This document shows positions 55,428-55,913 of a stretch of DNA of 64,000 nucleotides, in pieces. The position numbers and the translations under genes were made by a program. The notes beneath the pieces are model-generated. The model was given only the letters and a program-made list of their open reading frames with translations. It did no database searches and was not told where the DNA came from. This DNA comes from Patescibacteria group bacterium (GTDB lineage Bacteria; Patescibacteriota; Patescibacteriia; Magasanikbacterales; GWA2-37-8). How positions within the stretch are numbered: the stretch's first letter is position 1; each line of letters opens with the position of its first letter. The stretch spans positions 22,684-86,683 of the forward strand of contig SCQK01000004.1 in NCBI GenBank assembly GCA_004321885.1, read 5' to 3'.

Positions 55428-55440
55428 ACTACGTTCACGC

Positions 55441-55880
55441 CCTCTTAGGGCCTGTCGCCGAATACGCTTTCGTGACGAAATTACAGAATTCCGAGACAAA
55501 ATTGTTGAATAATTTTGCGGCTTACCTGGAAGGTAAGCCAAAAAATTTGAGACAATTTTGGCCGGAATTCTGGAATTGCAGTAGAAATGGTATTCGGCGA
55601 CAGGCCCTCTTAACAAAAAACTAGAAACCGTAACCACAAATTTTCACACACGAATCACACGAATTTGAATTGGTGAGATTGGTGTCAAAAGATTAGTGGT
55701 TCCAGTTTCTAGCCTTTCTATCTTTGTTTAGATAAATTGGCGTTAAATTTTGTTGTTTGTAAAATCTCCCAAGTTCAAAGCGGCTTAATAAATGTTTTTG
55801 AACCACTAATTTTACTCACCAATCGCTCACTAATCGAATTAGTGTGATTGGCGCATTCGTATTCGTGGTTCGATCTTATT
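55441..55880. mobile_element. MITE-like non-coding insertion between rpsJ and rplC: a 19-bp perfect terminal inverted repeat (55447..55465 / 55590..55608) around hairpin-rich DNA, plus a second ~90-bp-arm imperfect inverted repeat (55641..55735 / 55797..55880)
   Basis: AGGGCCTGTCGCCGAATAC pairs with GTATTCGGCGACAGGCCCT. Inner hairpins are CAGAATTCCG/CGGAATTCTG and GCTTACC-TGGAA-GGTAAGC. Right-hand arms share ATTGGTGAG, ATTAGTGGTTC and CGAAT words in inverted order. There is no ORF. Confidence 0.6.
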
Positions 55881-55913
55881 TACTGGGCCGCGAAAACTTT
55901 TGCCGACATCTTA

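What the first reader, a model, noticed from the sequence alone, without database searches (positions are those of the whole stretch)
55428..55913. A 486-bp non-coding, hairpin-rich MITE-like insertion splits rpsJ from rplC in the S10 operon
- rpsJ and rplC are normally adjacent.
- Here they are separated by a 19-bp perfect terminal inverted repeat pair (55447..55465 / 55590..55608) enclosing nested palindromes.
- A second, larger imperfect inverted repeat follows, with arms of about 90 bp at 55641..55735 and 55797..55880.
- The element would be co-transcribed within the S10 operon leader/intercistronic region.
Basis: seen in the sequence. Interest (0 to 1): 0.6.

Follow-up and report, generated by a model that had tools for sequence, protein, structure and literature searches.

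The report
Conserved rplC leader RNA carrying MITE
The long gap between the S10 and L3 ribosomal protein genes is mostly a conserved, structured leader RNA shared by a whole lineage of tiny groundwater bacteria and absent from the RNA family database; only its last third is a small mobile hairpin element.

Summary
The inverted repeats are real, but the 486-bp spacer is not one insertion.

- **Relatives:** All 80 related Patescibacteria (Magasanikbacteria-like) loci fetched also have a long rpsJ-rplC spacer of 154-951 nt. E. coli has 32 nt.
- **Conserved unit:** 75-78 of the 81 sources searched carry the same unit. It has a perfect TTGACA-17-TAnnnT promoter, then a covarying 5' hairpin domain with an invariant AAUAAGAU/AAAACAUUU internal loop. 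An AGGAG plus A-rich linker follows, then a covarying P3 hairpin, and finally an invariant CUAGAA...UUCUAG-U6 terminator just upstream of rplC.
- **Database status:** No Rfam 15 family matches it.
- **Most likely function:** It is a new leader/attenuator for the rplC-led ribosomal protein operon. The effector is unknown.
- **The MITE:** Window 55448-55607 is a true 160-nt MITE-like hairpin. It has an 18-bp perfect terminal inverted repeat and a 5-bp target duplication (TCTTA). Full-length copies at 74-78% identity sit in unrelated intergenic sites of other metagenome contigs. In the window it lies between the terminator and the rplC ribosome-binding site.
It is two ~70-nt palindromic modules that lengthen the P2 and terminator hairpins.
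- **In passing:** A BoxA-like motif upstream of rpsJ co-occurs with the leader.

The parts
55931..55936 (-). -35 hexamer TTGACA of the leader promoter, overlapping the last codons of rpsJ
   Evidence: The promoter scan scores it 10 of 12. All 73 relatives whose upstream sequence is not N-masked have a perfect TTGACA at the equivalent place.
55908..55913 (-). -10 hexamer TAAGAT, 17 nt after the -35. The predicted transcript start is about 55901.
   Evidence: Promoter scan. The spacer is 17 nt in 72 of 73 relatives, and the -35 lies 29-38 nt before the start of model R1 in most.
55764..55906 (-). Leader 5' domain. It comprises P1 (55898-55886 with 55784-55771), P1c with the invariant loop UAAAUAAGAUC (55882-55872) and AAAAACAUUUAU (55799-55788), P2, and then GGGAG.
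   Evidence: Model R1 scores 34.1 bits, E = 3.4e-4, and this is its only hit in the 64-kb window. Across 75 sequences, 84.7% of cells are paired against 61.6% in shuffles, and 20 of 23 pairs carry double changes. The single-sequence fold reproduces the structure.
55800..55871 (-). A 72-nt palindromic module, GAACCACGAAU...AUUAGUGGUUC, that lengthens the P2 hairpin.
   Evidence: The sequence between the two invariant loop strands is 72 nt here, against about 9-30 nt in compact relatives. It is 71% identical to the terminator module in either orientation. The same module type occupies P2 in L068 and L034.
55712..55741 (-). P3 hairpin, GCCAAUUUAUCU-AAACAA-AGAUAGAAAGGC
   Evidence: Model R2 scores 50.5 bits over 55612-55750. 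The outer GCC/GGC is invariant, and the inner pairs covary among relatives.
55615..55712 (-). Intrinsic-terminator-like hairpin, CUAGAAAC...GUUUCUAG (55712-55621), followed by U6 (55620-55615)
   Evidence: CTAG followed by at least four T lies within 330 nt downstream of the 5' domain in 75 of 75 loci. The stem is 85-90% paired with covarying inner pairs.
55633..55703 (-). A ~70-nt palindromic module that lengthens the terminator stem.
   Evidence: The stem interior is 68 nt, against mostly 20-35 nt in relatives. It is 71% identical to the P2 module. L068 has the same module type in its terminator.
55448..55607 (.). A 160-nt MITE-like element forming a whole-length hairpin. Terminal inverted repeat: GGGCCTGTCGCCGAATAC.
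   Evidence: Inverted repeat. RNA folding energy is -82.8 kcal/mol, z = -12.7. Full-length copies lie in L112, L102 and L125, with partial copies at the contig ends of L089 and L099. 17 of 64 pairs show compensatory changes among the 4 copies. It is absent from all relatives at this site.
55443..55447 (.). Target-site duplication TCTTA, rplC-proximal copy. On the gene strand it reads UAAGA, part of the Shine-Dalgarno-like AAGAGGG (55446-55440).
   Evidence: Read directly from the sequence. L102 has a perfect 5-bp TTTAA duplication, and L125 has 4 of 5.
55608..55612 (.). Target-site duplication TCTTA, terminator-proximal copy. It lies inside the conserved post-terminator GUUAAGAG.
   Evidence: Read directly from the sequence. 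CTAGTTTTTTGTTAAGAG is also present in L001, L059, L078 and L080.
56259..56304 (-). Context: a G/C-rich hairpin (56304-56272) followed by the BoxA-like GCUCUUUUUAAC (56270-56259), immediately before the rpsJ AUG
   Evidence: Hairpin. The motif occurs in 72 of 76 leader-bearing relatives and 0 of 3 leaderless ones, against a 5% background.

Best explanation
The spacer is a composite of an ancestral leader and later hairpin additions.

(1) The leader, 55613-55936 on the - strand.
- It is an ancestral transcription unit shared by Magasanikbacteria-like Patescibacteria.
- Its order is: a strong sigma-70-type promoter at the end of rpsJ, a ~85-nt 5' hairpin domain (P1-P1c-P2) with an invariant AAUAAGAU/AAAACAUUU internal loop, an AGGAG plus A-rich linker, a P3 hairpin, and a long hairpin with a U6 tract.
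- In many relatives the U tract lies only 15-30 nt from the rplC start.
- I read this as a cis-acting leader/attenuator. RNA polymerase must pass the terminator to express rplC-rplD-rplW-rplB and the genes beyond.
- The conserved 5' domain is the likely sensor that sets how often this happens. The most plausible effector is a protein of the translation apparatus, giving ribosomal-protein feedback analogous to L4 at the E. coli S10 leader. The effector itself is inferred, not shown.

(2) Three palindromic additions in this genome.
- A true 160-nt MITE-like element (55448-55607, 5-bp target duplication) transposed into the conserved GUUAAGAGGG sequence between terminator and start codon. It duplicated UAAGA and added a -83 kcal/mol hairpin to the rplC 5' UTR.
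- Two ~70-nt GAACCACGAAU...AUUAGUGGUUC modules lengthen the tips of P2 and of the terminator stem. Those are places where relatives also vary freely in length, so the core structure is kept.

What is shown: conservation, covariation, promoter and terminator motifs, the MITE family and its target duplication.
What is inferred: transcription, regulated termination and the identity of the effector.
For: Long spacers:
- Every related locus with both genes has a long spacer.

Promoter and terminator:
- All 73 relatives whose upstream sequence is not N-masked have TTGACA-17(16)-TAnnnT, placed so that the transcript start coincides with the start of the RNA model.
- CTAG followed by at least four T lies downstream in 75 of 75.

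Covariance models:
- R1 gives exactly one hit per locus, in 75 of the 81 sources searched. Every hit is on the gene strand just upstream of rplC, with no other hit in 501 kb.
- R2 hits 78 of 81 sources on the gene strand, with 74 at E<=5e-6.

Covariation:
- 5' domain: 84.7% paired against 61.6% in shuffles; covariation score 0.573 against 0.18 shuffled and at most 0.116 when the partners are slid.
- 3' domain: 82.7% against 69.3%; score 0.383 against 0.158.

Need for read-through:
- The terminator-to-ATG distance is only 15-30 nt in L024, L001, L075, L079, L052, L028, L033 and L059. That leaves no room for another promoter.
- The window's own leader folds into the consensus structure.

MITE:
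- Inverted repeat.
- Copies lie in unrelated intergenic contexts: upstream of pyrG, upstream of a membrane ORF and mraY, and between an nrnA-like gene and clpP.
- Target duplications: TCTTA in the window, TTTAA in L102.
- The whole-length hairpin is kept by compensatory changes.
- The reconstructed empty site, GTTAAGA|GGGCG, matches GTTAAGAGGG in L078 and L080.
Against: - There is no transcript, termination or binding data.
- No convincing alternative (antiterminator) pairing is conserved. A register-shift idea for P3 against the terminator's 5' arm fails in loci such as L080 and L008.
- The unit has its own strong promoter and a strong terminator, which is also what a stand-alone small RNA gene looks like.
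- A few loci (L013, L042, L043, L045) have another TTGACA after the terminator.
- A scan of E. coli rRNAs for the conserved loop strands gave only a chance-level match, so no rRNA mimicry is demonstrated.
- No second MITE copy lies in the 64-kb window, and the source genome could not be searched.
- One of the four full copies (L112) shows no clear target duplication.
- Whether the two ~70-nt modules are mobile or are ordinary helix expansions is open.
Confidence: 0.72

Rival explanations
1. The conserved promoter-to-terminator unit is a stand-alone small RNA gene of about 230 nt (about 290 nt here) nested in the operon. Transcripts from its own promoter stop at the terminator. RNA polymerase arriving from tuf/rpsJ has been modified at the BoxA-like element by NusB-S10 (NusE), reads through the terminator, and expresses rplC and the genes beyond.
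For: - The -35 is perfect in all 73 relatives whose upstream sequence is not N-masked, and the terminator is strong and sequence-conserved.
- The distance to rplC varies from 15 to 155 nt, often with further hairpins between.
- The BoxA-like G[CT]TC[CT]TT[TA] lies upstream of rpsJ in 72 of 76 leader-bearing loci and 0 of 3 leaderless ones, against a 5% background. Fisher p = 4e-4, not corrected for phylogeny.
- Putative boxA sequences upstream of rpsJ have been reported in other bacteria (PMC5725501).
Against: - The RNA always sits in the same orientation directly upstream of rplC, with one copy per locus and none elsewhere in the 64-kb window. That is the hallmark of a cis element.
- BoxA so close to the rpsJ start codon (12 nt in the window) fits translational autoregulation of S10 as in suhB (PMC5725501). 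That would need no link to the leader.
- The co-occurrence could simply reflect shared ancestry of the three leaderless genomes.
Confidence: 0.22
2. The whole 486-bp spacer is one MITE-like insertion that split two formerly adjacent genes.
For: - rpsJ and rplC are 32 nt apart in E. coli.
- The spacer is AT-richer than its flanks and extremely hairpin-rich.
Against: - All related loci have long spacers.
- About 320 nt are homologous across 75-78 divergent genomes, with covariation, a promoter and a terminator.
- Only 55448-55607 has copies elsewhere.
Confidence: 0.02
3. The leader is a riboswitch for a small molecule or ion, for example a growth-rate signal such as (p)ppGpp, a nucleotide or Mg2+, rather than a protein-binding leader.
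For: - The architecture is a conserved aptamer-like domain with an invariant internal loop followed by an intrinsic terminator. This is the classic transcriptional riboswitch layout.
Against: - From general knowledge rather than a test here, known regulators of ribosomal-protein operons are nearly always the operon's own proteins.
- The 5' domain is a simple rod with one internal loop, not a multi-helix junction or pseudoknot.
- No Rfam riboswitch model matches.
Confidence: 0.08
4. The two ~70-nt GAACCACGAAU...AUUAGUGGUUC modules are ordinary lineage-specific helix expansions of variable hairpins, not mobile elements.
For: - Relatives vary widely in P2 and terminator length with unrelated sequences.
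- Clear copies of the module are seen only inside the leaders of the window, L068 and L034. The scattered 9-mer hits elsewhere in the ~140 fetched loci and the window are at the level expected by chance.
- No terminal duplication is visible.
Against: - The same module type occurs at two different structural sites of one leader, in the window and in L068.
- It occurs in three genomes whose L3 proteins are only 57-58% identical to the window's. That is easier to explain by spread of a palindromic unit.
- The window is rich in other dispersed palindromic repeat families.
Confidence: 0.45

Closest known systems
E. coli S10 operon leader (L4-mediated transcription attenuation and translational repression)
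   Same: It is a structured 5' leader of the same ribosomal-protein gene block, ending in a hairpin with a U tract where read-through decides expression of rplC, rplD and the genes beyond. This rests on general knowledge of the system.
   Different: - The E. coli leader lies upstream of rpsJ. Here the element lies between rpsJ and rplC and has its own promoter.
- No sequence or structure similarity was detected, and no Rfam model matches.
- The effector is unknown.
Other ribosomal-protein leaders in Rfam (L10, L13, L19, L20, L21 and others)
   Same: They are clade-restricted, covarying cis-RNAs in front of ribosomal-protein operons.
   Different: None reaches threshold. The best is L20_leader at 20.5 bits against a gathering score of 58.7, and it is on the wrong strand.
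Whole-length-palindromic bacterial MITEs (Correia/NEMIS of Neisseria, ERIC of enterobacteria, RUP/BOX of pneumococci)
   Same: - It is 100-200 nt long and non-coding, with terminal inverted repeats.
- It folds into one long hairpin when transcribed.
- It is inserted in intergenic and 5'-UTR positions and co-transcribed with neighbouring genes.
   Different: - The sequence is unrelated.
- The target duplication is 5 bp and AT-rich, whereas Correia uses TA (from memory).
- The hosts are uncultivated bacteria from environmental metagenomes.
Tn3-family-derived miniature elements (TIMEs)
   Same: - The target duplication is 5 bp in AT-rich DNA.
- The terminus GGGCCTGTCGCC resembles the Tn3 end GGGGTCTGACGC. 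I recalled the Tn3 sequence from memory, so this is a lead and not a test.
   Different: - The similarity is confined to about 12 nt.
- The inner TAAG motif of Tn3-family ends is not seen.
- No cognate transposase was found or searched for.
BoxA-mediated Nus-factor autoregulation (suhB in E. coli; putative boxA upstream of rpsJ in other genera, PMC5725501)
   Same: One or two copies of G(C/U)UCUUUAA sit 10-80 nt upstream of rpsJ (nusE), preceded by a hairpin.
   Different: - Binding by NusB/S10 is not tested.
- In the window the motif has two extra U and also doubles as the U-rich tail of a terminator-like hairpin after tuf.

Membership tests
MITE (miniature inverted-repeat transposable element) | Terminal inverted repeats | tested here: met
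   The repeat is perfect over 18-19 bp and 92% complementary over 25 nt. It is conserved in all four full copies.
MITE (miniature inverted-repeat transposable element) | Target-site duplication directly flanking the ends | tested here: met
   TCTTA/TCTTA in the window and TTTAA/TTTAA in L102. L125 has TAACA/TATCA (4 of 5). None is evident in L112.
MITE (miniature inverted-repeat transposable element) | Small and non-coding | tested here: met
   The element is 160 nt. The only ORFs are short ones running through palindromic sequence.
MITE (miniature inverted-repeat transposable element) | Multiple copies at unrelated loci | tested here: met
   Three full and three partial copies lie on other metagenome contigs, in different gene contexts. 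Copy number within the source genome could not be tested. There is only one copy in the 64-kb window.
MITE (miniature inverted-repeat transposable element) | A related autonomous element whose transposase recognises the same ends | not tested
   No scan for longer elements bounded by the same inverted repeat was possible.
Intrinsic (Rho-independent) terminator | A stable stem-loop immediately followed by a U tract | tested here: met
   CUAGAAAC...GUUUCUAG followed by U6. The same arrangement is present in 75 of 75 relatives, and the stem is 85-90% paired with covariation.
Intrinsic (Rho-independent) terminator | Causes transcript release | not testable with these tools
   This needs Term-seq or in vitro transcription.
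Ribosomal-protein operon leader (autogenous regulator) | Conserved structured RNA in the 5' UTR of a ribosomal-protein operon | tested here: met
   Position and orientation are fixed upstream of rplC in 75-78 of the 81 sources searched. Covariation supports the structure.
Ribosomal-protein operon leader (autogenous regulator) | Bound by a protein encoded in the operon, often by mimicry of its rRNA site | tested here: inconclusive
   Only E. coli rRNAs could be scanned. The single 2-mismatch match (23S 2747, GAAAGCAUCUA) is at chance level, with about 0.6 expected. No rRNA from this lineage was available, and binding is not testable here.
Any Rfam 15 family | Score at or above the family's gathering threshold | tested here: not met
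   The window region and two compact representatives (L027, L052) give only hits far below gathering.
E. coli-type S10 leader | Located upstream of rpsJ as the first element of the S10 operon | tested here: not met
   The element lies downstream of rpsJ and upstream of rplC.
BoxA (NusB/NusE binding site) | Match to the consensus GCUCUUUAACAA-like sequence in a transcribed leader | tested here: inconclusive
   The octamer G[CT]TC[CT]TT[TA] occurs in 72 of 76 leader-bearing loci against a 5% background. The window reads GCUCUUUUUAAC. The consensus comes from general knowledge and PMC5725501, and binding is not testable.

The most novel reading that the evidence does not exclude
The rpsJ-rplC element is a previously undescribed class of structured RNA specific to Magasanikbacteria-like CPR bacteria. 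It works together with a BoxA element in front of rpsJ. S10 (NusE) is split off as its own autoregulated unit. The rest of the large ribosomal-protein operon is gated by a promoter-proximal RNA domain and a strong terminator, and read-through depends on Nus-type antitermination or on a ribosomal protein bound to the invariant AAUAAGAU/AAAACAUUU loop. In this reading, mobile palindromic hairpins are tolerated, and perhaps targeted, at the helix tips and in the 5' UTR.
Probability: 0.3. Interest if true: 0.75.

Novelty: new variant of a known kind. Interest (0 to 1): 0.55.

Why it matters
- **A candidate regulator in a poorly known group.** Regulation of ribosome synthesis is essentially unknown in Candidate Phyla Radiation bacteria, which have tiny genomes and few recognisable regulators. 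This is a strongly conserved, covarying RNA with a perfect promoter and a terminator, placed at a new position (after rpsJ, before rplC). It gives a concrete, testable handle on how these organisms control the main ribosomal-protein operon.
- **A seed for a family model.** The RNA is absent from Rfam, so the 75-sequence alignment could seed a new family.
- **Structural tolerance to insertions.** The window shows how palindromic mobile or expanding hairpins accumulate at structurally permissive points of a functional RNA: helix tips and the 5' UTR.
- **A caution for annotation.** Hairpin-rich spacers in operons should not be read as single insertions without comparing relatives.
- **A possible link to S10 autoregulation.** The co-occurring BoxA-like motif in front of rpsJ extends earlier hints of NusE autoregulation to this lineage.

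Tried and rejected
- **Exact-protein look-ups.** Look-ups of the window's own L3 and S10, and of P0001, found no contig on record. The source genome could not be examined for further MITE copies.
- **Rfam.** Searches of the region, the whole window and two compact relatives found no family for the spacer.
- **Plasmid collection.** blastn of the spacer found no match.
- **Near-matches in the window.** The two 3-mismatch matches to the inverted repeat, at 18629 and 61387, lie in ordinary coding-looking sequence with no partner arm. I rejected them as chance.
- **21-nt metagenome matches.** The many 21-nt exact matches to the repeat arm (L087, L088, L096 and others) extend no further and are unrelated sequences.
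- **Leader peptide.** I considered an ORF starting after the AGGAG. Start codons, lengths and frames are not conserved, and the window has no start codon there, so I rejected it (reading).
- **Register-shift antiterminator.** I considered the P3 5' arm pairing with the terminator's 5' arm. This is possible where P3 is GCCAUUCU but impossible in loci with other P3 sequences, so I did not adopt it.
- **Pairing of AACAGGAGA with the U tract plus GUU.** It needs several G-U pairs and could only form after the termination decision, so I did not adopt it.
- **rRNA mimicry.** The scan against E. coli 16S, 23S and 5S gave a chance-level result.
- **K-turn or loop-E reading of the invariant loop.** No match to those consensus motifs, judged by eye and from memory.
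- **Literature.** Searches for a described leader in Patescibacteria/Magasanikbacteria, or for MITEs in CPR, found nothing relevant in the held library. The rpsJ motif of PMC11109978 is a different RNA: it lies in the 5' UTR of rpsJ in Peptostreptococcaceae.
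Full report
**Layout of the region.** All genes lie on the - strand.
- tuf: 56315-57541.
- rpsJ: 55914-56258.
- Non-coding spacer: 55428-55913, 486 nt.
- rplC: 54834-55427.
- rplD, rplW and rplB follow.

The L3 protein is identical to a GenBank entry from a 'Patescibacteria group bacterium'. Its next relatives are only about 60% identical, and those that carry a name are labelled Candidatus Magasanikbacteria or Patescibacteria group bacterium.

**Check of the observation.**
- The first inverted repeat is exactly as described. It is perfect over 55447-55465 / 55590-55608 and 92% complementary over 25 nt, and three nested inverted repeats lie inside it.
- The 18-mer arm is expected 0.04 times per window even with three mismatches allowed.
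- The spacer folds with z = -12.7 on the transcribed strand and -13.5 on the other. Near-equal energies on both strands indicate DNA-level palindromes.
- The second 'inverted repeat with ~90-bp arms' is only patchy, at 70-93% over 13-37 nt, and it is accompanied by direct repeats at a spacing of 169 nt.
- The two 'arms' are separate, self-complementary hairpins. They are 71% identical to each other in either orientation.

- The first two relatives fetched already had spacers of 286 and 414 nt. They share sequence blocks with the window.
- A genome scan with an L3 alignment returned 80 species-representative contigs with 52-64% L3 identity, labelled Magasanikbacteria or Patescibacteria where labelled correctly.
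- Every locus with both genes has a spacer of 154-951 nt, with most between about 250 and 500 nt. E. coli has 32 nt.
- The long spacer is therefore ancestral in this lineage.

**Anatomy of the conserved element** (read on the gene strand):
- A TTGACA-17 nt-TAnnnT promoter.
- About 7-10 nt after the predicted transcript start, the 5' arm of helix P1.
- The invariant block (A/G)UAAAUAAGAU(C/U).
- A hairpin P2 of very variable length.
- The invariant block (G)AAAACAUUUA.
- The 3' arm of P1.
- AGGAG(A) and an A-rich linker, often containing UUGAAAAU.
- AGCC-AUUCU...AGAA-GGCU, which forms P3 and encloses variable hairpins.
- Directly abutting P3, CUAGAAGC...GCUUCUAG-UUUUUU-GUU.

**Promoter and terminator statistics.**
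- Seventy-three of 75 relatives have the perfect -35 with a 17-nt spacer (16 nt in one). The other two are masked by runs of N at that place.
- The -35 lies 29-38 nt before the RNA model start in most relatives. The predicted transcript start therefore coincides with the start of the structure.
- All 75 have CTAG followed by at least four T downstream.
- In the window the promoter is TTGACA (55936-55931) and TAAGAT (55913-55908), overlapping the end of rpsJ.

**Structure and covariation, 5' domain.**
- I built covariance model R1 from 20 compact sequences with a hand-drawn structure.
- It finds exactly one hit per locus in 75 of the 81 sources searched. Every hit is on the gene strand just upstream of rplC, with nothing else in 501 kb. 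The only hit in the 64-kb window is 55764-55906, at 34 bits. The score is low because of the large P2 insert.
- On that alignment, 84.7% of cells form pairs against 61.6% after shuffling.
- The covariation score is 0.573, against 0.18 shuffled (0 of 500 shuffles reach it) and at most 0.116 when partners are slid by 1-3 columns.
- Twenty of 23 pairs show changes on both sides.
- The alignment was fitted to the model, which favours the structure. However, a plain MAFFT alignment already showed the same compensatory pattern.

**Structure and covariation, 3' domain.**
- Model R2 hits 78 of the 81 sources on the gene strand. The window hit is 55612-55750, at 50.5 bits.
- Pairing is 82.7% against 69.3% in shuffles, and the score is 0.383 against 0.158.
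- The weaker reverse-strand hits come from the palindromic terminator.
- The window's own leader, folded alone, reproduces P1, P1c, P2, P3 and the terminator.
- No Rfam 15 family matches the window region or two compact representatives.
- Literature searches in the held library found no description of the element.

**What the leader most likely does.**
- In L024, L001, L075, L079, L052, L028, L033 and L059 the U tract is only 15-30 nt from the rplC ATG. No promoter can fit between them.
- RNA polymerase therefore has to read through a long, U6-tailed hairpin to express the operon.
- A conserved sensor-like domain followed by a terminator in front of the genes it controls is the layout of a transcription attenuator.
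- Ribosomal-protein operons are usually controlled by one of their own products. The E. coli S10 operon is controlled by L4-stimulated termination in its leader (general knowledge). My best guess for the effector is therefore protein feedback acting on the invariant AAUAAGAU/AAAACAUUU loop.
- This step is inference.
- I found no conserved antiterminator pairing. A scan of E. coli rRNAs for the loop strands was at chance level.

**The small-RNA rival and the BoxA-like motif.**
- A real rival is that the unit is a small RNA gene in its own right.
- The tuf-rpsJ spacer of the window has a G/C-rich hairpin followed by GCUCUUUUUAAC immediately before the rpsJ AUG.
- Seventy-two of 76 leader-bearing relatives have one or two G(C/U)UC(C/U)UU(U/A) motifs there, against a 5% background. 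The three leaderless loci (L066, L073, L084) have none.
- This resembles BoxA, the NusB-S10 binding site. Putative boxA elements upstream of rpsJ have been reported in a few genera (PMC5725501).
- It may simply autoregulate S10.
- Alternatively, it may equip polymerases coming from upstream to pass the leader terminator.
- The co-occurrence is not corrected for phylogeny.

**The MITE.**
- Compared with relatives, the window has an extra 160 nt (55448-55607) between the conserved post-terminator GUUAAGAG and the start codon.
- The element begins and ends with GGGCCTGTCGCCGAATAC in inverted orientation. It is flanked by TCTTA on both sides (55443-55447 and 55608-55612, + strand).
- Removing one repeat and the element restores GTTAAGAGGGCG. 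That matches GTTAAGAGGG in L078 and L080.
- An exact scan of the metagenome collection with the 18-mer found full-length relatives:
  - L112: 978-1139, 78% identity.
  - L102: 1140-1309, 76% identity.
  - L125: 1264-1427, 74% identity.
- Truncated copies lie at the contig ends of L089 and at both ends of L099. That is what a dispersed repeat does to assemblies.
- None of these loci encodes S10 or L3.
- The copies are intergenic. One is upstream of pyrG, one is upstream of a membrane ORF and mraY, and one is between an nrnA-like gene and clpP.
- The host contigs have 36-48% G+C, against 50% for the window.
- L102 has a perfect 5-bp duplication (TTTAA), L125 has 4 of 5, and L112 has none evident.
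- Among the four full copies a 64-pair whole-length hairpin is preserved. Seventeen pairs carry compensatory changes and only a handful of cells are broken.
- As RNA the window copy folds at -82.8 kcal/mol, z = -12.7.
- This is a MITE-like family of the whole-length-palindrome type, like Correia or ERIC elements.
- The 5-bp AT-rich duplication and a GGG(G)YCTGWCGC terminus recall Tn3-derived miniature elements. That comparison is from memory and untested.
- The hairpin has no U tract after it on either strand, so it is not itself a terminator.
- It lengthens the rplC 5' UTR and leaves a copy of UAAGAGGG 13 nt before the AUG.

**The other two hairpins.**
- The P2 insert (55800-55871) and the interior of the terminator stem (55633-55703) are both GAACCAC(G/U)AAU...AUU(A/U)GUGGUU palindromes.
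- The same module type occupies P2 and the terminator in L068, and P2 in L034. The L3 proteins of these two are only 57-58% identical to the window's.
- Clear copies of the module are seen only inside these three leaders. The scattered 9-mer hits elsewhere are at the level expected by chance.
- Whether these modules are mobile or are helix expansions remains open.
- Either way they sit at helix tips, where relatives vary freely. That explains why the conserved core survives.

**Verdict.**
- The more interesting object is the conserved promoter-leader-terminator RNA. It is a new, lineage-specific family of ribosomal-protein operon leader at an unusual position, and here it is decorated with palindromic insertions.

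Noticed in passing
window 56259-56304 (- strand), and the tuf-rpsJ spacers of L005-L084: A G/C-rich hairpin is followed by a BoxA-like GCUCUUUUUAAC directly before the rpsJ (nusE) start codon. Relatives carry one or two G(C/U)UCUUUAA copies at the same place. The motif is present in 72 of 76 leader-bearing loci and 0 of 3 leaderless ones, against a 5% background. It suggests S10 autoregulation or antitermination.
   Followed up: partly
L010, L016, L023, L038, L047, L051, L055, L057, L074, L076, L077, L078, L080 and others, 10-15 nt upstream of the rplC ATG: A further conserved hairpin, GUUAUCUCC...(GGGAUGGGA)...GGAGCAAUGAC, lies between the leader terminator and rplC in roughly 25 relatives. 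It may be a second operator. It is absent from the window, where the MITE occupies that interval.
   Followed up: no
window 15267-15725 (- strand): The RNase P RNA (Rfam class A, 131.8 bits) spans 459 nt against a 367-position model. It contains two copies of the CCCGACTAAGTCGGG palindrome (15361-15394 and 15674-15707). A second functional RNA in this genome therefore carries palindromic inserts.
   Followed up: no
window 3626-3716, 13669-13854 (tandem 93-nt units), 18930-18962, 45109-45165, 45237-45270: A dispersed family of nested palindromic repeats, GGCTCCACAGCCCCGACTAAGTCGGGGACTATGGAGCC, up to 99% complementary between copies 10 kb apart. Similar CCCGACT(T/C)AGTCGGG hairpins cap P2 of the leader in relatives L012, L041, L046 and L048.
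   Followed up: no
window 5831, 11798, 26127, 26832, 41204, 42490, 47547; also 2296-2334 and 38077-38111: Two more short palindromic repeat families are scattered through intergenic DNA: CCTCCCCTT..AAGGGGAGG...GGGGTA and CCACCACACCAAAAATTTTGGTGTGGTGG.
   Followed up: no
window 38568-38631 (+ strand): A DUF3800-II RNA (Rfam RF02961) scores 67 bits against a gathering score of 43.2.
   Followed up: no
window 1155-1228 (+ strand): A tRNA gene is called tRNA-Ile with anticodon TAT (UAU). This is an uncommon way for bacteria to read AUA, which usually uses a lysidine-modified CAU tRNA.
   Followed up: no
window 53687-54130 (- strand): The ORF covering rplW (L23) is 147 aa and starts with a lysine- and alanine-rich extension ([39 protein letters not shown]...). 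Relatives' L23 genes are also long, at 140-165 aa.
   Followed up: no
L099 1-70 and 4571-4622; L089 60-106: Short Hainich groundwater contigs begin or end inside copies of the 160-nt element. This indicates that it is repeated often enough in those genomes to break assemblies.
   Followed up: partly
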